The notes below the pieces were generated by a model. The model was not told the origin of the DNA and searched no databases. It was given only the letters and a program-made list of their open reading frames with translations. 44,171 nt of DNA from Spizellomyces punctatus DAOM BR117 (lineage: Eukaryota). The DNA lies in the NCBI GenBank assembly GCA_000182565.2, contig KQ257468.1; one strand, written 5' to 3'. The translations under genes and the position numbers were made by a program. Shown piece after piece: positions 6,279 to 43,122 of this stretch; the stretch's first letter is position 1; the number at the start of each line of letters is the position of its first letter.

Positions 6279-9102
6279 TTAGCCATAGCCAACTTCTGTC
6301 CAATTACCTACCACCGGCCACTTGGACTGGTCGCTACCGTCCAATACTGTACAAATCTGATCAGGGCCACCCCTAAATACTCTTGCACTCGGTCTAAGCG
6401 TTGTAAAGAGTGCAGTTTCCCCAAATCCTGATCTTGAGACGACGTGGTAGTCCATATCCAACTGGACAAGCCAGTCGAGATAAGCGCGCCAGTGTGTTCG
6501 TTTGTGCGCGTTCACGTCCAGCTGCGGCGTCTTGTCTATGTGAGTTATCGGACCTGCAGTGATAGGCAACCGTGTCAGAAATGGTGCAATTAGATACACT
6601 CGGAAGACAAAAGGCAGCGGACGTTGATCGAAGCTTTTGTAGTGCAATCCGAGTGGCATTCGTAATATCAACCCGAGCCCAAAGCAGTATGATCGGGGTC
6701 CGCTGCCTTATGTCCACTGAATATCTGTACAAAGAGGACAGCCAAACTAACCAGCAATTGCGAACGACTTGTATCCAAGGGATGTGAGTGATCGGCTCAG
6801 AGTCTTCTGTGCCTGTGTAGAATCTGCGGTTATGAAGAAGATAACCTCGCTCTTGCGAAGCCCTCGATCAAGCGCAAACTGCACTCCGCGTGCGACGTAA
6901 CATACGGAGGCGTCGAGCGGCATCCGACCCGCAACGTCAGCCGCAAACGCTGGCTCCCCCGTACCGCCGCCAGCGCGAAATTGAATACCGATTTTAATGG
7001 CAGATCTGTAGCCGTCGATATCGCTGCGCACAGCTTCCAACATCTGCTTTAGCGGTGGTGAAGGTGCGAATAGCGCACGTATCACGGTTCCCAACAAGGC
7101 TTCGCGGTTGAAGGTAAGGAGCGAGTACCACTCAATTAGCGGCCGCCAATATGGGTTTTGAAGCATGAGGTGTAAGAGATCCATATTCGCGTGCAGGTAC
7201 ACAATATCAGCATCAATCCACGGGTCAGGCTTTTCATAAAGACTCTTGGCGTTTGCAGTTGTGTCGACCAAGTCAATCAGACTGACTTCAATGGTCTTTC
7301 GGCCTGTAGCCCAAGACTTGTCGAATCTCCAGTCGAAGCTTGCCGGTATGAGATAATCTTCCAGTGCATCCGGGAAACTTATATCAATACCGAGCGACCG
7401 GTTGGTAAATACACCGTAGTATACGGATGTAATCGCTCCTTTCACTCGATCCCCAAGACCCCCGCAATATGTGCTTCGGCAAACTAACACAACCCAACGC
7501 GATGTCCGTGGGTTGGCTCGCGCTGTTTGCATAGACTGCTCGTAATCGCGTAGCATCCGATCGAGGCCAAGCCGATGCTTCACTCGATCCGCTGTTAAGG
7601 CGCCTAATCCAGTAAAATTGTGAACTACATTGAATGTTTCCGAAATCGCTAGATCTGCTTTTCCCGCATCTGCATCGGCTGGATAGACTGACACGGGCAC
7701 CTTCGGAGGGTTTGTCACGTCCGTAGGAATGGCAGGACTATGATCCTATCAGAGAGCTAAGTGGTCATATTTCGATGCGAATGAATATTGCAATACCTAC
7801 CACAGAAACACTGCTATTAGCAGCAGATTGCCAAGGAAGGCTACTCAATGATACCTCTCCGTTCTTACAACCGAATGTGTTCTGCAGTGCCCAGACCGGC
7901 TGAAAGATTTCATCTGAGGTGACAGGGCGTGTCATTGCGTCCTTTGGGAACACTCCGAGAATTCTCCATCCCGCAAACAACTTTGGCAGTCGCAAAGGCC
8001 CGTAAATACGGTGAGCATTCCAATCGAGCCGGTCAAAACAGCATGGAACGCCAATGAACATGAAGCCGCCAGGTTTGACAACTGTCAGCATCTTGGCCAT
8101 CGTCTGGAGATCACCGGATGGATTCAAGTTGTCGCCGTAGCGTCCCAAGCCGTCGTGCTCCAGAGAGGAGTACGTGAAGACAAAGTCAAAAGGGCGTATT
8201 GAACCCTGAATAAATCCCAGCGAGAACTGCTTCGGTGTGAACGTGGTAATCTGAGGATGTTTTGAGTCGATGGACCCAAACTCTAGAGTGGTAACATGTT
8301 CCGCGCCATATTCAAGCAAGAAGGCTTCAAGCCACGGATTCTCTGAGCCTATGACAAGGCCGCGTTTGCCTTTGACTGCGACCGCTGCGTGGGCGTTGAG
8401 CACGTCGTAAATAGGCTCATTGGGATAGTTGAACCCGGCTACTTTCTTGCGCACTCCTTGCCGGTAAAGTTCCACTTGTTCCTTGGTCCAATCTGATACG
8501 AGAGCTTTATTGCCAAGATAGGCCTTTCCGGCAAGAAAATCTTAGCTGAAGGTAGTCGAATATCGCAGTTGGCTGGATCTTATGTCCAAATTTCACACCT
8601 GATCAAAATACCGCTGAACTACAGGAATACTCCCATTAAATGTATAGTCATCCAAGAGAACTGATGGGATCTCGGAAGGAGCAGGACCATATCTTGCTGC
8701 ACAGAAATGTGTCAGATGGATGCAATACAATGAACCGCAGCGATTGGTATCGTGTCAATTCTACATTGACGGGAACACACCTGTTTCCGCTTTTAGCCAG
8801 GCTTCGAGGAGTGGGAACTCTGGTTTGGCCAGAGGCTTGATATGAGCAGTGGCCGCATCCACATCTGGCTCAACCCAGACACAATCCCTATTGACAGGTT
8901 GCACTGCATCCGCACGGCTGGATGCTTCTGTAGTCTCTTCGTTCGTTAAAGCGGAATGCACCTCCGGAGACCCGAGAAACATGGGTTTGCGCAGCAGATC
9001 GCGGGGCAGGAGTAGAAAGCTGAGAGACAGCAAGCATATGAAGAGGACGCCGGTAGCGTTGCGCAGGAGTCGCCATGAACAAAACGCTTGATTTGCAAAC
9101 AT
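6279..9102 (-). CDS. Type II membrane fusion protein: DUF268 (methyltransferase-like) + GDP-fucose-type GT-B glycosyltransferase (GT37/GT23/GT11-like)
   Basis: TM GVLFICLLSLSFLLL. DUF268 motifs LVIGSENPWLE, SSLEHDGLGRYGDNLNPSGDL, KPGG and NAHRIYG. A 55-nt phase-0 intron (7746-7800) joins SSVSV to DHSPAIPTDVTNPPK in frame. Fucosyltransferase motifs CGGLGDR, IGIQFRAG, FFITADS and, after intron 6554-6751, YLDWLVQLDMDYHVVSRSGFGETA. The start could be the upstream in-frame ATG at 9123 or 9147. Confidence 0.8.
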
Positions 9103-30000: not shown

Positions 30001-30553
30001 GGGTTAGGAGGGATAGTAGAAGCTAGCTTTTGAGCCTGATTCCTCGATACGTGCTACATCATGTGGTTTTGTAGTTAATCACTGCGTCTTTTGCTTTACT
30101 TGCTTCTTATATATGTGCTACCTACCCATCACTCCTATCGGGTTTGCACGCTAATCTGCTGTGCGCGCCTAGATGCTGACAGACAGACATTGTCTTTGTG
30201 GGAAGCTCTCATGAAAACAGTCATTCCGACATCTCTCGGTACTGCGTGGGAGCAAAACGGCAACGTGCTGCGGAAGGCAGGACGGAAGGAAGGCGCTCAA
30301 TCCTACGTGGCTCCTCGTCTATACTGAGGAATATCATAGTCGGTCATACCGACGGTGCGATATCGCATGTAAGCAGATATGTGGAAGCGCTCGCCACAAA
30401 ACGTCAACTTCTCAATGTCACATTTTAACAATCTAAGACTCATTAGGTTGTATGAAGGCTACTGACCATATGCATGTTCAATTTATATATGTAGGCAGGT
30501 ATGTATGCTGCTCCCAAGCACATTGCCCAACAGATTCCCTCGCCCTCCAAACA

Positions 30554-32063
30554 TCAGGCAACAGTCCGACTAGCTTTGGCCACCATAGCGGTGCTCGAAA
30601 ATGAATCGCCAAACATAGCTAATCCCAGAAGGCATGAAACCAGGACGGCGACAATTACAACACCCAGAACCGGTCGGCGTTTGGTGGCGTCAGCACTTTT
30701 GGAGGCAGGCCGAGTCGAACCTTCGCAGGAAGTGTTTTGTGTGGCATTGGGGCTCCGAGACGGACCGTAACCCAAATACAAGTAGCTAGACAGACACTCT
30801 TTGGTTAGCTATCGCCGGTACCTTCAATCAGCAGAAGATAAGATATACAATTGCTTACGTGCTGACGAACAGGACGATGCTTCCGACGGCTGTCAATAGT
30901 GTTATCGGCAATCCAAGAAGAACTGTCGACAACACGATCAGAAGGGCCGTTGTAACGGATTGGGCCAGGCACTTTATAACTGCATCCGCATCTGGAAGTC
31001 GACAACACATTTGATCAGTATTCTCCTTGCTGCCGGAAGTAGAACAACAAGGAGCGGCAAAAACGTACACTTATATACAGCGGTAATGACGAGTCCAATA
31101 ATCGAATTCATGAAAACGACCATCACGGCATTAAATTCGTCGTAGCCCTCGAAAAATCCGGGTTCCGTACTTCCTGGCCGCCAGGCAAGCCAGCAATAAA
31201 CCGTGACGTTGAGAAGGAAGCCACTCGCGTACAGAACCATATTTTGGGCGTGTATTGAGACTGGCTGCTTCAACAGATGGTCATTGATGCAGCTGCATAC
31301 CGAAGTAATGCAAGTGGAGATGAGGAGAAACGCGTAAAGTGAGATAGGGTAGACAGTTCCGCCGTCCCGATATTGCGTGACAATCAACCCGCACACCTGC
31401 AAGAAAGCTGAGCTCAATAACTCTTCTAAAAGGGAAATGAGGAAGTGACATTCCTTACCTGGAGGACTATTGCCATCCATTGCAATGAGCTGACAGTTCT
31501 TGCGAGAAAAAGATATAGGATTCCAGCTGAAATTAGTGTCGAGCCGGACTTGACGAGTTGAATGGTCCCAGGATCCGCCAGACGGAACAGATAGAATGTC
31601 AAATGGTTGTTAGTCCCATCTTTTATTTGAAATTTGTGAGATCGCGTTCGTGAGTACCCCGCAAGACGGCTATCATGGAGGTTAGAATGAAGCACCGTCA
31701 CTTACACATCAGGGTCAGCATCGCGATGCTCCTCATCATTTTTGGTGGCACTTCGTTAATCCAGCTTTGAAACAGTCCATTTACTTGACGGCGCCCCTTC
31801 CAGGTTTGTTCGTTAGGTACGAGACTGTAGGCATCCGGTCGACTTTTCAGCGACTTGCGGTAAAGCGCTGTCGAGATGCAGAACTTTGTAAATTCCGCAA
31901 GTGCCAATGCAGATGCTTGGGAAAATCTGTAATTTCCTTTCGCCTGAGATAGCTTGTAGACGAGCCCAATCGTGGTCTGTACAAGGACAAGACTCATGAA
32001 CGACAACATGGCCGGCCCGAAGCGGGCTACGAGCGCATGCGCTAGAGAATTCTGAGGCATCAT
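30554..32063 (-). CDS. Nucleotide-sugar transporter, SLC35A (CMP-sialic acid/UDP-Gal) family
   Basis: Four introns. AEFTKFCIS, YGTNNHL, ADPGTIQLVKSGSTLISA, LQWMAIVLQVCG, SIHAQNMVLY, GFFEGY and GLVITAVYKYADAVIK match the SLC35A (Nuc_sug_transp) pattern. Confidence 0.88.
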
Positions 32064-32180
32064 GTTTTTCAGAATAGCGGTAGATGAAGATGCACTGGGC
32101 ACCGAGCATAGATTTCTTCACGATTTTATAGAGTCGAAATTCGGACAGGCTACTACTCAAGTCGAGACTCGAGAGTAATT

Positions 32181-32334: not shown

Positions 32335-33970
32335 ATGAACACCCCAACCAGCACCAAAATCCGTTTGGTCGTCTTTGACCTTGACGGTGTTCTGTTCTCG
32401 TCGAAGGACCTGCACTATGTGGCTCTCAATCGAGCGTTGGAGATCGTCGGCCCCAAGTATGTGATCAATTATGAGGACCATTTGGCCCACTTTGACGGCC
32501 TTCCCACTAAAACGAAGCTGGATAAGCTCACTACTGAGCGGGGATTGGTAAGAGCCCCTTCGTTCCGTGGAAGCAAAGCCTCCAAGCGCTTCTTGTTCCC
32601 TAGTACTCTGTGCTCATGTCTCTTCATTTGGGTCGGCCTATTTTAGCCGGTGTCGAAACATGGAATGATCTGGGATCTGAAGCAACAGAAAACTTTCGAA
32701 GTGATTGCTGATACGTTTCAACCCGACGTTCGACTTCGAGCCGTTTTGCAAGGCCTCAAGGATGCTGGGTATCTCATCTACTGCGGTTCCAACAGTATTT
32801 ATAAGACCATTGAGGTAAGCAAATACTCGACTCAATCAAACACGCCTTTTTGCGGGAAGCTGATTTGGGAGCTCTCCACAGCTCATGCTCCGCAAGAAAA
32901 ATGTCCTCGATCTCTTTGACGCGATCATTAGCTGTGAAGATGTTACGCAACCCAAACCGAGTCCGGCCATTTACCTATGTGCGTGTCTGCGGGCCGGAGT
33001 CTCTCCAAAGGAAACTATCATCCTGGAAGATTCTCAGGTCGGACGCAAGTCTGCTCTTCTTTCCGGATGTCACCTCCTTCCAGTTGATGTTCCTGAAAAC
33101 GTTACACTAAAGAGTATCCTCAATGCAATTGGTGCTATTAACCGGTCCCAAGAAAATCAAGTTATGCGGGTGAAATGGCGGAGCCCCTTGAACGTGGTCA
33201 TTCCTATGAACAAGAGGGTGACACGCGTTGAGCGCTCCACTTTTGAATCATGTGTCGGCTCTGAAAGCGGGCCTCGGGTCACGACGAAAGAGGACCCAAC
33301 CACTACATGCCCCTCGTACTTGGCCCTGGTCAACGGCTGTCCTGTGCTCCAGCTGGCAGTCGAGAGTCTGCACGTAGACGCAAATTTCATCTTTGTAGTT
33401 CCACGCCGGGATTATGAAGAATATCACTTAAAGTACCTTTTGGCCGTACTGAAACCCAACTGCAAGGTGCTCGTGGCTGAAGAAGAGACTCTGGGACAAG
33501 CAGCCTCGGTGCTCTTAGCGAAACAGTACATAAATGATTCCACTCCACTCCTCATTGCCAACTGTACCCAACTCCTGGACTGGGACTCGCATACCTTCTT
33601 ATATCTCATGGATGAACCGGGAGTACAAGGCGGGATAGCAACCGTGGTTCGTTCCGATCCTCGTTATTCATACGTAAATGTGAACGAGAAGGGGTGGATC
33701 GTGGATGTTGCAGAGAAGCGAGTGATCTCCGACATTGCCACTGCCGGTGTTTATTATTGGCGGAGTGGATCCGACTTCGTCAAATACTCAGAAGAGATGA
33801 TGCGGGACCCCAAAAACATGGTCGACGGAGCGTACTACGTGAGTACAGCGTACAAAGGAGCTGTCATCGACGGAATGCACTTCAAAGCTGTCCCATGTAA
33901 TGGGTACTGGCCTTTGGGCCTCCCGGAGGATGTGGAAGCTTACCTGAAACAGACCAATACGGAAGAATGA
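32335..33970 (+). CDS. HAD-IA phosphatase fused to a degenerate BcbE-like sugar-phosphate nucleotidyltransferase domain
   Basis: Introns 32548-32646 and 32815-32881. HAD motifs FDLDGV, SNS, KPSP and EDS are intact. C-terminal domain LNVVIPM..TLGQAASVLLAK..PLLIANCTQ..YSYV..VAEKRVISDIATAGVYYWRSGSDFV..YYVS..LGLPED is homologous to the gene at 35882. Confidence 0.88.
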
Positions 33971-34256
33971 CCAGAGATGCAGGACAACGTCGAAAGCCTG
34001 TAATTTGTAGCTCTGCTTGGATGGGGCGTCTTGATTATCGCCATGCAGTGTTGTTTATTGAACTTAGCGCCTGGAACACTGATTTCCCCGGTAGAAATCA
34101 CTTCTGAGAGCAAGGTTATGCCCATGTACAAACAAAATATAACTAAATAGAGGAATGTCTACATAAGCACTTTTAATAATATCTTGGAAGTGTATCACAG
34201 ATGCGTTCGTGACACAGGCCTGCACCCGCCCAAAACAAAGTGATTGTCACGACTAA

Positions 34257-35559
34257 TTAGCGGCCATTGTTCTCTACTACATCCACGGTCACACACTCTG
34301 TGGGTTGCATTCTCCAGCTCGATCTACCGACCTGGAACTTCGATACGGTCAGTGTTCCAAAGAAGACGTCTTGCCATGCGTCGCTTGCGGCAATCAGGTG
34401 CTCGGGCGATACATCCGCGGAAAGACGCAAAATGGTTGAGTGCACAATGTCGTTTTGATACCGCCGAAATGGCAATCCTTCCTTCTCCAAGCGGCTTTCT
34501 ATTCGCTGCCGCCAGATATTCACGTCCACCGATGGGTATCCGAGCATGACAAGGCCGGTTGACACTGCCACCAAGCCAGACCACTTGATTGTGAGGGGTA
34601 ACAAGGTTGCCATTTCTTCCCGCAAGATGGCAAGATACTTTGACTGATGACAAGCAAATGTAGCACTGTGTTCCTCCCACTGTTCAAAACCAAGGATCTG
34701 CATAAATGTCCAATGAACGAACGAAATTGGGCCAGCAACGTCGTAGATGTTCTGGTTGCCCAATTCTTTGGCCAGGTATGTGTTCAAAGCTGACCAGGCA
34801 GGTGTCGGAGCAAAGTCATCGTAGTACGTATACACTGCAAGGCACCTCCGTTCGTCTATGAGAGTATGGTGCAGAAGCTTATCCACAATCAATGGGTTGA
34901 TGTAGTCGCTTTCTTTTTTGGTGCGATGCCCCACAAGCTTCTTTCTGTTCCGTGTCCGCATTTCGACATACGTAGCGTACAGTGTGGCGAAGTCTGTGCA
35001 TATGCCATAGCAGTTCCAAATGCCAGTTTGATGATCCGATCTTTCAGGCATGACCGAGATTGCTCCTTTTACCAACTCCCTGCCGGGATATGTCCAGATA
35101 CGGCCATCGGACGTTATAACGTGCGGGTCGATATCGTGTGAGAAAGAACGCAATACATCACGACGGCTCAGCAGATATGCCAGTGCATGTACATTCTTTG
35201 CATGACACCACAAATTACCAGCGTACTGGTCAAGGAACGAAGGTTCTATAGGAATCTCCGGCTCGTCGTGGCCAAAAAAGAGTTGGCCTGAATGGCGGTG
35301 CGAATGATGAATTCATTCATGTTAAGACATGAACCAGCCGTCATATTAGAGTCAGATGTGAAACCGTGCGCCTACCGTCTATGCTCCACACGTCCACCTC
35401 TACATCAAAACCCTGCGCAATGGCGTCCTGTATATACGGTAGCGTATTTTCCAATTCCTTCCTCGGCCCACGCGTATTGCCTCGGTGGGCAATAATGACT
35501 GGAACTTCTCTACCTCCAGCAGTTTCGGCGGTGTCGGCCAACATGACAGAGTTTTGCAT
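34257..35559 (-). CDS. GDPD/PI-PLC-like phosphodiesterase domain fused to a 2H-phosphoesterase-like domain
   Basis: One intron (35288-35375). N-terminal IIAHRGN..ENT..GFDVEVDVW..GHD..WCHAKN..TSDGRIWTYPG..VMPE..GICTD. C-terminal half has two HxT motifs (VHWTF, VHSTI) about 90 aa apart. Confidence 0.8.
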
Positions 35560-35881: not shown

Positions 35882-36781
35882 ATGGCTGTCCCCAAGGTAT
35901 GTCCAGCTAGGATCTAATGGAGCACACGGCTGCGCAGCCAGTACCTGGCGTCTCGCATATGCACTCATTCGCTAGCTGCGTACATAATAGACTGATCTTT
36001 TCTTAACCTTTCCACGCAGATCAACATTCTCATCCCCATGGCCGGCGCAGGCAGCCGATTTGCCAAAGCTGGATACAAGGATCCAAAGCCTCTCATCCCC
36101 GTCCGCGGCAAGCCCATGATCCAGGTTGTCGTCGACAATATGCGCGTCCCCGACGCGCACTTCATCTTTGTCGTCCAGCGAGAGCATTATGCACAGTACG
36201 ATTTGGGAAGAAAACTTAGCGCGATCGCTCCCGGTTGCGACATCGTCCAGATTGATGGCCTCACAGAAGGCGCAGCCTGCACCGTACTAAAGGCAAAGTC
36301 TTTGATCGACTCGGACGTACCCCTTTTGACCGCCAACTCCGACCAGTTCTTGGAATGGGACGCGGCCGAGTTCGTGGCCAGCATGACCGACGGTGTAGAC
36401 GGGGTTGTCTCTACCTTCATCAAGGACGAACCTGATGTCAAGTGGTCCTATGCTAAATTGGACGAATATGGCCACATCCAAGACATCCAAGAGAAGAAAC
36501 CCATCTCCAACATTGCCACAACAGGTATCTACATGTGGCGAAAGGGATCGGATTTTGTTCGCTACGCGCAGCAAATGATGGACGCCGGTGACAAGAGCAA
36601 CGGGGAATATTATGTAGCCCCAGTCTACAACTACGGCATTCGCGATGGAAAGAAATATATCACCAAGCATTGTGACCGGATGTGGGGAATTGGAGTTCCA
36701 GACGACTTGAACTTCTTTTTGGCGGAATACAAGAAGCCCTTGATCCGTCCACAAATTGTCGACGGTACAGCGGTTTTCTGA
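35882..36781 (+). CDS. BcbE-like sugar-phosphate nucleotidyltransferase (NTP_transferase/GT-A fold)
   Basis: Micro-exon MAVPK, then intron 35897-36019, then INILIPMAGAGSRFAKAGYKDPKPLI, TEGAACTVL, ANSDQ, KWSYAK, EKKPISNIATTGIY, NGEYYVAPVYN and GIGVPDDL. Confidence 0.92.
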
Positions 36782-37000: not shown

Positions 37001-38152
37001 CTATCCCCGCCGGCTTCTTTCAAGGTCCCATCCGTATGGGACCTTTCCCACTGTATCATCTGCTTTTTTGAATTTCGGCTCGACATTTGAAAGTTCCTCG
37101 GGAGATTCATGACGGCGAAGGATTGTCATTGGCGCCATATCGTAACCGATCTTTTGCGCACGCAGGCGATACAAGATAAGTTTGAGGTGGTTCTCAACAC
37201 CACGAAAGTCAAGTAAGCGACTTACCACCGTTTTGGCTCCCGCCCGCACAAGCAGATCGTGCATGCTAGTCTCTGGGTTTGGCAGACTTTCGTTTCGCGA
37301 CCACATGTTGAGCAAATCATCCAGTCCCGGCCTGATATTCTGTGCCACTGAGAATGGAATCCAGACAAATTGGTCGTTAAACTGACGGGAGGTGTTGGCG
37401 CGATGATCCAACCCGAACAGAAAGCCGGCATGGTACGCGCGGCGAGGGTGGGCTCCAGAGCCAATTTCGTAAAGTACGATATCCTCGGAACTCCGTGGAA
37501 GTCGGAAAAAATGATAAGGCAACACGTCCCCTCTTGTTATGAGAAGATGGGTGTACGGCTCGCCGCATTGGGTGAGGGCATGGTCGACAGCGAGCCGGAT
37601 GGCTGTTATCCAGGATCTGAACTGTTCCAGATGGCGAGAGGCAAACTGATTCGCAATGAAACGACCGTCGGATAAGTAAAAGGGTACGACTTCCGGGATA
37701 CCGTGTTCCGCCAACATGGCTTGCGTCTGCGCCATATTCTGTATGTAGGTCCCCAAACCCTTGACTTTGCCGTTCCCAAAGAAAGATTCAAGCACTTGCA
37801 ATGTGACTAGCTCAGAATCAGGTCCGTCATCATCCCAAAAGCGGTGTGGACCAAAGTAGAAAACGTCCATCGATGGTTGTACTGGATCGTCCAAAGCGTA
37901 ACGCCGCCAGAAGGGCGCTGTAGATCGGACTGTTCGAAGGTAGCCAGAGAAAACCAAGGCCACTTTTGAGCACTTATTAGTGCCATATGACTCCGGAGGA
38001 CGACCACCCAATGTGCGGATCGCAGAGTCGAGATGCGACTTGCCTAGGTGCGACGCGGAAAATAGAATCAAGGCCAAACAAACCACTGCCGAGAATCTCC
38101 TGGCAGCTACGAATTTGAGCCGTTGAAGAAGTGCGGTGCGTGTGGCGAGCAT
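37001..38152 (-). CDS. Intronless type II membrane putative glycosyltransferase ('ALxxSGxxR' family), 383 aa
   Basis: Basic N-tail plus TM (RRFSAVVCLALILFSAS). KVALVFSGYLRT, MDVFY, YTHLLITRGDV, FNDQF and NPETSM resemble a family of uncharacterised GT-like proteins from polysaccharide loci. The function is inferred. Confidence 0.65.
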   Translation of the reverse strand: MLATRTALLQRLKFVAARRFSAVVCLALILFSASHLGKSHLDSAIRTLGGRPPESYGTNKCSKVALVFSGYLRTVRSTAPFWRRYALDDPVQPSMDVFYFGPHRFWDDDGPDSELVTLQVLESFFGNGKVKGLGTYIQNMAQTQAMLAEHGIPEVVPFYLSDGRFIANQFASRHLEQFRSWITAIRLAVDHALTQCGEPYTHLLITRGDVLPYHFFRLPRSSEDIVLYEIGSGAHPRRAYHAGFLFGLDHRANTSRQFNDQFVWIPFSVAQNIRPGLDDLLNMWSRNESLPNPETSMHDLLVRAGAKTVVSRLLDFRGVENHLKLILYRLRAQKIGYDMAPMTILRRHESPEELSNVEPKFKKADDTVGKVPYGWDLERSRRG

Positions 38153-41820: not shown

Positions 41821-43122
41821 TCAATAACGGGCACTAATCCAAGTCTTTGCCTCCTTGACAAAAGACCGATGAACCAAGAAAATATCGACCGTGGGATGGG
41901 TGTCGGACCATGCCTTAAACTCCGATGGCCGCACTGCCGGTTCCCCCAAGAAGCTGTTGTACACTTTGCCGGTTTCCGTAGAATCTTTTGCCTTGGCTTC
42001 GTGAGTGAACCAAGACGTCCGAATTTCATAACCGTAGCCATCGAGTAGCGTTAGAATCCCTGTCGGATCATCACCCAAAAGGCGAGCTTGAAGTGAGGGT
42101 ATGTACTCCATCATAATCATGGGCGGTCTGTTATCGGTTGCAAAAAGAGATTTTTCGCCACCCTTCAGCACTTCGCTTTCAAAGCCTTCGACATCCATTT
42201 TCATGACACCAAATTCGCCCGCACGCCGGTCGTCCTGTACAATCCCATCAAGAGTGTGAATGGAAACATCGGCGCGGACGCCGTGCTGGTCGGCTACTGG
42301 CTTCTTGCTGTCCTCGCCGCACTGAAGGATGCCATTTCCATGGTTTTCGTTATGCGAGATGATACGACACTCGTCGGGTTGTGCGCCAAGGCCCATTGCA
42401 TAATAGTCAACATGACGGGCCAAGTCTCGGTTAGCACAGAGAGATCGCCGGATAAGGTACTAGAAACAGCCAAAGTAGAGGGGTCAGCGTTCAATACATT
42501 TTGCTCAAAACTTCAAGCCTGTACATTGGAATTACCTCATTCTGGGGCATCGGTTCAAAAACTGCCACGCGATGCCCGTGCGCAGCAGCCGTGACTGTGT
42601 ACCACCCGACATTGCCTCCAATATCGAGGAACGTTGCTCGATCTTGTCCCCTCACGTCGTTCGCAAGCTTCAGAGCCCAAAGCACTTGTCTTGTTGCTGC
42701 GTGTTCCCACACGCCTGTGCGAATGATGATGGCCGATACGGCATCCATGCCCGTGTCATACAGTGTCAGCTTGTAGGATACCCCATCCAAATCGATGGTC
42801 TTTTCAACGGTCTTGTCGGGAAGCGGGGTCACCGCGGCGGTGCGGCAAAATGCGTTTTGCTCAATGGCTAGGAGCAGAAGAAGGTAAACCATTAATCGAC
42901 TGTTTAACAATGTGAAGAAACAGCGTGGCTGCGCGATCCGCACTTACCTGCACGGGTGCGCCAAGCTATCTTATTTTCATACCAACTTTTAGGCATACCA
43001 AAGCTTGTTCTGGTAATCTCCGTCGGACGACCCCAGGGGACGGAAACGAACAAGAGGAAGGCCACGGCTGCCAGTGCGAACCACATGCGAGGTGAGCGAA
43101 AGTGGTTGCTCGAGAATGCCAT
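41821..43122 (-). CDS. Type II membrane FkbM-family (Methyltransf_21) SAM-dependent methyltransferase
   Basis: TM WFALAAVAFLLFVSV; two introns; GVWE, FLDIGGNVGWYT, VAVFEPMPQN, TLD, MKMDVEGFESEVLKGG and IMMEY. Confidence 0.9.

What the first reader, a model, noticed from the sequence alone, without database searches (positions are those of the whole stretch)
34257..35559. Fusion of two unrelated phosphodiesterase folds (GDPD/PLC-like + 2H) suggests cyclic-phosphate chemistry
Seen: an N-terminal AHRGN/ENT/DVEVDVW/GHD domain continues without a stop into a domain with two HxT motifs (HWTF, HSTI). Known: GDPD/PI-PLC enzymes act via cyclic phosphate intermediates, and 2H enzymes open cyclic phosphodiesters. 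Inference: beside a nucleotidyltransferase and a HAD phosphatase, the protein could form or open a sugar 1,2-cyclic phosphate. That would put a phosphate on the anomeric carbon of a ketose such as fructose or xylulose before nucleotide activation, a step kinases do not normally provide. This mechanism is speculative.
Basis: partly seen in the sequence, partly recalled or inferred. Interest (0 to 1): 0.75.

Follow-up and report, generated by a model that had tools for sequence, protein, structure and literature searches.

The report
Two-phosphodiesterase fusion in chytrid sugar cluster
A soil chytrid fungus makes one protein that joins two unrelated phosphate-cutting enzymes inside a small gene cluster for building an activated sugar; the same parts recur in bacteria, viruses and other eukaryotes, which suggests an untested route to a rare sugar building block through a ring-shaped phosphate.

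Summary
The fusion is real, but the gene is eukaryotic and has an 88-nt intron. The spliced 404-aa product is identical to Spizellomyces punctatus SPPG_08203. Modelling confirms a miniature GDPD barrel plus a 2H domain, with catalytic residues intact. The pairing is not chance: 31 of 153 proteins of this 2H subfamily carry the mini-GDPD, in both orders, and 5 are NTase–miniGDPD–HAD–NTase–2H polyproteins. The window encodes those same five domains in three adjacent, transcribed genes, beside a GT-A-fold transferase and a probable nucleotide-sugar transporter. The core module is NTase + mini-GDPD (120 of 137 loci); 2H is an add-on (2 of 137). HAD and a RuBisCO-like protein alternate almost perfectly as partner, which hints at a ketose-1-phosphate substrate. 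Best reading (0.45): NTase activates the sugar, mini-GDPD expels NMP to give a 1,2-cyclic phosphate, 2H opens it to the anomeric phosphate, and an NDP-sugar results. A nucleotide-sugar role is likely (0.85); the chemistry and the sugar are untested. Main rival: 2H repairs spontaneous cyclic by-products.

The parts
35376..35559 (-). Exon 1 of the fusion gene (residues 1-61 of 404; HRG at 35479-35487, EN, DVEVD)
35288..35375 (-). 88-nt GT-AG intron
   Evidence: Splice scan; the spliced product equals the annotated 404-aa protein P0278; not spanned by reads
34257..35287 (-). Exon 2 (rest of the mini-GDPD, linker helix, 2H domain, stop)
   Evidence: minus-strand 3'-end read pile at 34138-34404
34950..35505 (-). 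Miniature GDPD-like domain (~155 aa, spans the intron): HRG, EN, ExD, GHD, WCHAK, FSHD
   Evidence: Profile of 62 standalone homologues, E 8e-63 on P0001; fold Z 10.5 to 1o1z; invariant columns
34260..34964 (-). 2H phosphoesterase domain with N-terminal YxEMxxRN helix; HWT 34707-34715, HST 34434-34442
   Evidence: Fold Z 13.9 to 1vgj, 11.7 to 2fsq; both His invariant where aligned
36038..36781 (+). Nucleotidyltransferase NT1 with intact GxGxRF motif, divergently transcribed; true start may lie a little upstream (open frame 261 aa)
   Evidence: PF00483 E 7e-12; PDB 4evw E 1e-14; 3' read pile
32335..33970 (+). HAD phosphatase fused to a second, degenerate nucleotidyltransferase NT2 (no GxGxRF); modelled introns 32548-32646 and 32815-32881; 489 aa
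   Evidence: 3' read pile
37001..38152 (-). DUF7796-like, GT-A-fold putative glycosyltransferase with N-terminal membrane anchor; in-frame intron 37151-37225
   Evidence: E 8e-9 to the neighbour-family profile; Atlas; family fold GT-A, Z 11.8 to 3zf8; RNA joint; hydropathy
30974..32102 (-). Probable nucleotide-sugar transporter, multi-exon, not modelled in full
   Evidence: PF04142 on one exon only, E 0.012, 15.2 bits, below the 27-bit cut-off: weak

Best explanation
The protein is two steps of a five-domain pathway that makes an unusual nucleotide-activated sugar for glycan decoration. Proposed order (all chemistry inferred): (1) HAD trims or shifts a phosphate to give a sugar 1-phosphate, most likely a ketose 1-phosphate; (2) NT1 attaches NMP to it; (3) the metal-dependent mini-GDPD lets the neighbouring 2-OH attack the phosphate and expel NMP, giving a sugar 1,2-cyclic phosphate; (4) the 2H domain opens the ring to leave the phosphate on the anomeric carbon; (5) NT1, or an NT1/NT2 pair, re-activates it to an NDP-sugar, which the transporter imports for the membrane-anchored GT-A enzyme. 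Where 2H is absent, the mini-GDPD would open its own cyclic intermediate, as GDPDs do. Layered odds: nucleotide-sugar pathway 0.85; a cyclic phosphate passed between the two domains 0.45-0.55; ketose 0.4; the exact order as written 0.25.
For: Shown: both folds with intact catalytic residues. Of 153 proteins of this 2H subfamily, found with the 2H part as query (146 new, plus 7), 13 are MINI-2H, 12 are 2H-MINI, 5 are NT1-MINI-HAD-NT2-2H, 7 join 2H to NT or HAD-NT, 1 has MINI with 2H under the cut-off, and 115 match 2H alone. The fused MINI domains fall at several places in a weakly supported tree. Three more join this 2H to a full-size GDPD (1 of 3 over the Pfam cut-off). The window carries the same five domains in three adjacent genes, each with a 3' read pile. 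Mini-GDPD loci carry the NTase in 50 of 57 genomic and 70 of 80 viral loci, and a DUF7796-like GT-A protein in 53 of 137. Plasmid loci show the order NT-PDE-HAD-NT. The one locus found by a 2H query in viral contigs (L148) has HAD-NT and MINI next to it. Among 120 NT loci: RuBisCO-like+HAD 1, RuBisCO-like only 24, HAD only 79, neither 16 (Fisher p 1e-13); a class II aldolase sits in one E. coli plasmid locus. From established knowledge (recalled): GDPDs go through a 1,2-cyclic phosphate; the 2H CPDase opens ADP-ribose 1'',2''-cyclic phosphate to the anomeric phosphate (its structure 1fsi is matched at Z 8.3); RuBisCO-like enzymes act on or yield ketose 1-phosphates. A cytidylyltransferase acting on a ketose's primary phosphate has precedent (CDP-6-fructose, PMC10918830). 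NT1/NT2 binding: weak support only, 0.54 against best control 0.00, runs agree in at least 93% of contacts, partner pLDDT at least 83; scores of 0.60 or under were reached by 5 of 78 solved complexes and by all 4 mismatches that passed.
Against: No enzyme assay and no substrate. 2H is present in only 2 of 137 mini-GDPD loci, and 115 of 153 2H proteins match no module domain in the same chain (their neighbourhoods are mostly unknown). Distant 2H relatives in 12 of 401 CPR genomes lie outside glycan loci. NT2 lacks the GxGxRF motif found in 121 of 135 locus NTases, so it may not catalyse step 5. The RLP/HAD exclusion is not phylogenetically independent. No locus with this module could be tied to a solved glycan. 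The known fructose-adding genes of P. multocida look like a different set (bcbG is longer than 958 nt). The transporter call is weak. The third GDPD metal-ligand position appears to be His rather than Glu (mapping inferred), so the chemistry may differ.
Confidence: 0.45

Rival explanations
1. Metabolite repair. NT1 makes the final NDP-sugar directly. Such donors decay to NMP plus a dead-end sugar 1,2-cyclic phosphate, and the mini-GDPD and the optional 2H only hydrolyse these by-products or recycle spent donor.
For: 2H is dispensable in 135 of 137 loci; NT2 is degenerate; both domains are hydrolase folds; metal-catalysed cyclisation of NDP-sugars is known chemistry (recalled).
Against: The mini-GDPD is tightly kept with the NTase, even in compact phage and giant-virus loci (70 of 80), which fits a required step better than a clean-up. 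Two hydrolases plus two NTases fused in one chain (5 of 153) look like a relay.
Confidence: 0.25
2. Same relay, but the substrate is a polyol or cyclitol (glycerol, ribitol, inositol), or an aldopentose. The cyclic phosphate moves the phosphate to a neighbouring hydroxyl, and the NDP-polyol is then used to add a phosphodiester-linked unit.
For: GDPD and PI-PLC folds natively act on glycerol and inositol phosphodiesters (recalled; one search matches are GDPDs). A degenerate NT from a bacterial locus weakly matches inositol-1-phosphate cytidylyltransferase (E 7e-5).
Against: The co-occurring transferase has a GT-A glycosyltransferase fold, not a phosphotransferase fold. RuBisCO-like and class II aldolase partners point to carbonyl sugars.
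Confidence: 0.2
3. The protein is an ordinary glycerophosphodiester or RNA/nucleotide-end phosphodiesterase, and its place in the cluster is incidental.
For: Closest solved folds are GDPDs and RNA ligase/CPDase-type 2H proteins; distant 2H relatives occur outside glycan loci.
Against: Repeated fusion in both orders and five-domain polyproteins; NTase next to the mini-GDPD in 120 of 137 loci; the N-domain is a truncated barrel below the GDPD cut-off (14.7 against 23.6 bits).
Confidence: 0.07

Closest known systems
Glycerophosphodiester phosphodiesterases (PF03009; e.g. PDB 1o1z, 1vd6, 7e0v)
   Same: Barrel fold and N-terminal HRG / EN / ExD / HD catalytic layout
   Different: About 150 aa against 220-250; below the Pfam cut-off; W-x-H-x-K at the third strand; encoded with nucleotidyltransferases rather than glycerol-scavenging genes
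2H phosphoesterases (LigT-like 1vgj, Atu0111 2fsq, Appr>p CPDase 1fsi, AKAP18)
   Same: Fold and two HxT motifs
   Different: A distinct subfamily with an N-terminal YxEMxxRN helix and extra invariant Arg/Asp/Trp; fused to mini-GDPD, HAD and NTases; 8-16% identity to the best-matching solved 2H chains
[quoted passage not shown]
   Same: A nucleotidyltransferase-fold protein of the BcbE-like group (family name recalled; also used in PMC11641403) is needed for a ketose branch whose donor chemistry that paper does not define
   Different: No BcbE/F/G sequence was compared here; bcbG is longer than 958 nt, so it is not the standalone small phosphodiesterase; no 2H reported
'Form IV-like' RuBisCO-like proteins of phages and Beckwithbacteria (PMC6389311) and the scan's earlier RLP-NTase-cupin-miniPDE cassette
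   Same: Same mini-GDPD and NTase family; a RuBisCO-like protein lies in 25 of 137 mini-GDPD loci
   Different: The chytrid version uses HAD, adds 2H and a second NTase, and no RuBisCO-family match was found in its genome; the passages of the paper that I read assign no glycan role

Membership tests
GDPD (PF03009) | Catalytic His/Arg (HRG), ExD metal ligands and second His (HD) | tested here: met
   Aligned to GDPD chains 7e0v and 3i10; invariant in 62 homologues; present in P0001
GDPD (PF03009) | Barrel fold of GDPD type | tested here: met
   Z 10.5, rmsd 3.7, 147 aligned to 1o1z; many further GDPD entries at Z 7.5-10.2
GDPD (PF03009) | Full-length domain reaching the Pfam cut-off | tested here: not met
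   14.7 bits against 23.6, profile positions 1-45 of 244 only; domain about 150 aa
GDPD (PF03009) | Hydrolysis of glycerophosphodiesters | not testable with these tools
   Needs an assay
2H phosphoesterase superfamily | Two HxT/S motifs | tested here: met
   His in 140 of 140 and 152 of 152 aligned rows of 153 (13 and 1 gaps); T/S in 140 and 150
2H phosphoesterase superfamily | 2H fold | tested here: met
   Z 13.9 to 1vgj; Foldseek E 3e-7 to 1vdx
2H phosphoesterase superfamily | Membership of a named Pfam 2H family at cut-off | tested here: not met
   No 2H Pfam hit on P0001; PF13563 18.4 against 27 bits on P0002; one relative, P0217, passes
2H phosphoesterase superfamily | Cyclic phosphodiesterase activity | not testable with these tools
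   Needs an assay
BcbE/F/G ketose-branch system | Orthologues of BcbE, BcbF and BcbG together | tested here: inconclusive
   No Bcb sequence was obtained from a tool; only the bcbG length bound and E. coli DNA searches without a useful match
Form IV-like RLP-NTase cassette | RuBisCO-like gene with the NTase | tested here: not met
   PF00016 not found in the own genome (0 of 1; control rang in 5 of 14 genomes; the search is exon-wise)
Form IV-like RLP-NTase cassette | Shared NTase and miniature phosphodiesterase | tested here: met

The most novel reading that the evidence does not exclude
A eukaryote activates a ketose (fructose-, xylulose- or ribulose-like) by a phosphate-walking relay: NDP on C1, cyclisation by a miniature GDPD, regiospecific opening by a 2H enzyme to the anomeric C2 phosphate, and re-activation. 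It then installs the ketofuranose on Golgi glycans with a DUF7796 GT-A transferase. The same logic, with HAD or a RuBisCO-like enzyme feeding it, would be a general route to ketose donors in bacteria, phages and giant viruses.
Probability: 0.27. Interest if true: 0.82.

Novelty: new variant of a known kind. Interest (0 to 1): 0.6.

Why it matters
How ketoses get onto glycans is open. A 2019 review of E. coli O antigens finds no NDP-xylulose genes in the clusters (PMC7685785, passages). A 2026 genetic study shows BcbE and BcbG are needed for a fructose branch without defining the donor (PMC13552107). This cluster, from a culturable saprobic chytrid, packs a complete candidate pathway (NTase, mini-GDPD, 2H, HAD, second NTase, transporter, transferase) into a few expressed genes. 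Three soluble proteins and 31P NMR can test it. A positive result would give biosynthetic roles to a miniature GDPD, a 2H subfamily and DUF7796, explain a module that is common in phages, giant-virus contigs and SAR11 islands, and predict an unrecognised sugar on chytrid glycans.

Tried and rejected
Reading the two halves as one uninterrupted ORF: rejected, there is an intron. Two separate transcripts: no 3' read pile after the N-domain (depth 0.2-0.6, against 37 at the gene's end); low depth makes this weak. No RNA holder was listed by the run index; the raw-read run X7 was laid instead. PDB sequence search with exon 2: 0 matches. Pfam on the separate exons: 0 families. Linking the module to a solved glycan failed: E. 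coli DNA searches gave no match or only two plasmids, and the mini-GDPD gave no plasmid match. Equating BcbG with the small phosphodiesterase, a recalled idea, was dropped on gene length. Context searches for the standalone 2H found little: none in metagenome contigs (299 stretches, 0 confirmed), 1 of 36 stretches in viral contigs, none with two other queries, none on plasmids. The mini-GDPD and the longer ~210-aa bacterial PDE align only over the first ~53 columns (hhalign probability 75%), so I treat them as cousins, not one family. A PDB sequence search with the DUF7796 profile gave nothing credible; its fold search listed no CMP-Kdo-type transferase, which is inconclusive. Atlas feature hits for the 2H part were all under 0.9, leads only. 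Trees of NT and MINI domains have weak backbones: no donor or direction of transfer is claimed. Ten paper searches found no description of this fusion or of the module's chemistry; the library lacks most subscription papers.

Full report
OBSERVATION. The window is eukaryotic. A scan of GT-AG pairs gives an 88-nt intron, 35375..35288, and a 404-aa product. That product is identical to the annotated Spizellomyces punctatus protein SPPG_08203, XP_016604661.1. The gene is single-copy in the own genome. A search with exon 2 returned 7 proteins of 920 candidates; 5 carry both domains (S. palustris, three Geranomyces, one metagenome fragment) and 2 carry only the C-domain. One RNA run (about 6% of it read) shows read piles at the 3' ends of the fusion gene, both NTase genes and the transferase gene, on the expected strands, and no pile after the N-domain. 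It shows two other introns of the cluster, but it does not span this one. That the library is 3'-biased is my inference from the profile.

FOLDS. AlphaFold2 on P0001 (96% identical; 103-sequence alignment) gave pLDDT 94.5 and pTM 0.91. Residues 204-398 match 2H proteins (1vgj Z 13.9, rmsd 3.1, 175 aligned; 2fsq Z 11.7; Appr>p CPDase 1fsi Z 8.3) and residues 11-164 match GDPDs (1o1z Z 10.5, rmsd 3.7, 147 of 226); Foldseek agrees. The N-domain belongs to a family of standalone ~150-aa proteins (253 hits of 258 candidates) with invariant HRG, EN, ExD, GHD, WxHxK and FxHxxD. Its first ~55 positions align with the catalytic start of GDPDs, but it misses the Pfam cut-off. In the 2H subfamily both histidines are invariant where aligned, and extra Arg, Asp and Trp positions are fixed in an 18-sequence subset.

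THE MODULE. A search with the 2H part alone gave 187 hits, of which the best 150 were listed; this makes 153 proteins. Their architectures are: 2H alone 115, MINI-2H 13, 2H-MINI 12, NT1-MINI-HAD-NT2-2H 5, NT2-2H 4, HAD-NT2-2H 2, NT1-2H 1, and 1 MINI protein whose 2H fell under the cut-off (profiles built by me). Three of the 115 carry a full-size GDPD instead (60 proteins scanned). The window encodes the five polyprotein domains in three adjacent genes: HAD-NT2 (32335-33970), MINI-2H, and NT1 (36038-36781). Beside them lie a membrane-anchored DUF7796-like protein, whose family folds as a GT-A glycosyltransferase (Z 11.8 to Mnn9 3zf8), and a probable nucleotide-sugar transporter (weak single-exon hit). 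DUF7796-like genes occur in 53 of the 137. Plasmid loci with a longer ~205-aa cousin show NT-PDE-HAD-NT, the order of the polyprotein, and WavE or other transferases are often nearby. A published Campylobacter gene table lists a similar set of annotations (PMC7901785, passages); I did not compare those sequences. So the core is NTase + small GDPD-like enzyme, and 2H is a recurrent add-on. Against over-reading: distant 2H relatives in 12 of 401 CPR genomes had no NTase or mini-GDPD nearby (10 widened to 7-13 kb, 2 left short).

SUBSTRATE HINTS. A RuBisCO-like protein is in 25 of 137 loci. Among the 120 NT loci it almost never occurs with HAD (both 1, RLP only 24, HAD only 79, neither 16; p 1e-13). 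The loci are related, so the p-value overstates the case, although RLP-linked NTases fall in several clades. HAD and RLP therefore look like alternative suppliers of the NTase substrate. RuBisCO-like enzymes act on or yield ketose 1-phosphates (recalled), and one E. coli plasmid locus has a class II aldolase. No RuBisCO-family match was found in the chytrid genome. NT1's best PDB match is the Vibrio structural-genomics protein 4evw. In P. multocida, bcbE and bcbG mutants lose the fructose branch (PMC13552107; I read parts 1-4 of 6 and searched its one supplement), but bcbG is longer than 958 nt and I could not compare those proteins. A cytidylyltransferase for fructose-6-phosphate is known (PMC10918830, passages).

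MECHANISM. Shown: gene structure, folds, residues, domain co-occurrence, expression. Inferred: HAD gives a sugar 1-phosphate; NT1 adds NMP; the mini-GDPD cyclises with loss of NMP; 2H opens the ring onto the anomeric carbon; NT1 or NT1/NT2 re-activates; transporter and GT-A enzyme use the donor. The transporter and the GT-A fold argue that the end product is a nucleotide sugar and not a free cyclic phosphate. NT2 lacks the GxGxRF motif (present in 121 of 135 locus NTases) and may be a non-catalytic partner. A predicted NT1/NT2 complex has weak support only (0.54 against best control 0.00; contacts agree at least 93%, partner pLDDT at least 83; at 0.60 or under, 5 of 78 solved complexes and all 4 passing mismatches; related NTase oligomers are solved, so likeness may contribute). 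The chief rival is metabolite repair, because 2H is missing from 135 of 137 loci. A polyol substrate is the second rival. An ordinary GDPD or RNA-end enzyme is unlikely.

COMPARISON AND NOVELTY. It works like a GDPD plus a 2H cyclic phosphodiesterase. It is a 2H-superfamily member by fold and motifs, but it reaches no named Pfam 2H family and is not a canonical GDPD. Ten literature searches found no account of the fusion or of the module's chemistry; the library omits most subscription journals, so biochemical work may exist there. Passages of PMC6389311, PMC7685785, PMC11641403, PMC12409901, PMC9614988, PMC13171598 and PMC7725333 were read by term search only; their supplements were not read and could bear on the novelty claim. 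The scan itself has repeatedly noted the RLP-NTase-cupin-miniPDE cassette on other DNA. I found the RLP link in my own data before that look-up. What this finding adds is the HAD/2H/second-NTase branch, the five-domain polyproteins, and an intron-bearing, transcribed eukaryotic cluster with its own transferase.

VERDICT. Real feature; new variant of known folds within an uncharacterised nucleotide-sugar module; interest 0.6. The most novel reading, a cyclic-phosphate relay for ketose activation in a eukaryote, has probability about 0.27 and would merit 0.82.

Noticed in passing
window 30554-30860 (-) and read pile 30400-30666: A further minus-strand gene with an RNA-supported intron (30786-30858) and a hydrophobic stretch typical of a type II membrane anchor; its 3' pile is as deep as any in the cluster. 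Possibly another Golgi enzyme of the cluster.
   Followed up: no
window 41821-42423 (-) and 7765-8475 (-): An FkbM-type methyltransferase (PF05050, E 4e-9) and a DUF268 protein (E 8e-37). FkbM genes also occur in some mini-GDPD loci, so the first may belong to the cluster.
   Followed up: partly
L109:8617-9732 and 24 other loci: RuBisCO-like proteins next to NTase + mini-GDPD, nearly exclusive with HAD; six SAR11 loci have two NTases flanking the RLP.
   Followed up: partly
L046:806-4090: The full five-domain polyprotein on a 4.7-kb contig of an Oxalobacteraceae MAG; it groups with four of the other polyproteins and may be a mis-binned eukaryotic contig.
   Followed up: no
P0137, P0143, P0169, P0180, P0188: Algal-type members of this 2H subfamily: a diatom protein (Coscinodiscus) with an unannotated C-terminal tail, and three fusions to a full-size GDPD.
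   Followed up: no
L179:6022-14984: E. coli plasmid cluster of NTP transferase, GtrA flippase, GT2-annotated protein, PI-PLC/GDPD-family protein, uridine-kinase-like protein, HAD and class II aldolase, found in 2 of 5426 genomes: perhaps a lipid-carrier version of the pathway.
   Followed up: partly
L148:3650-6058: Giant-virus contig with HAD-NT, 2H and mini-GDPD in a row, all broken by frameshifts (decay or sequencing error).
   Followed up: no
window 34031: T>G difference in 7 of 35 plus-strand RNA reads, in the stretch between the convergent gene ends; a strain difference or an alignment artefact.
   Followed up: no
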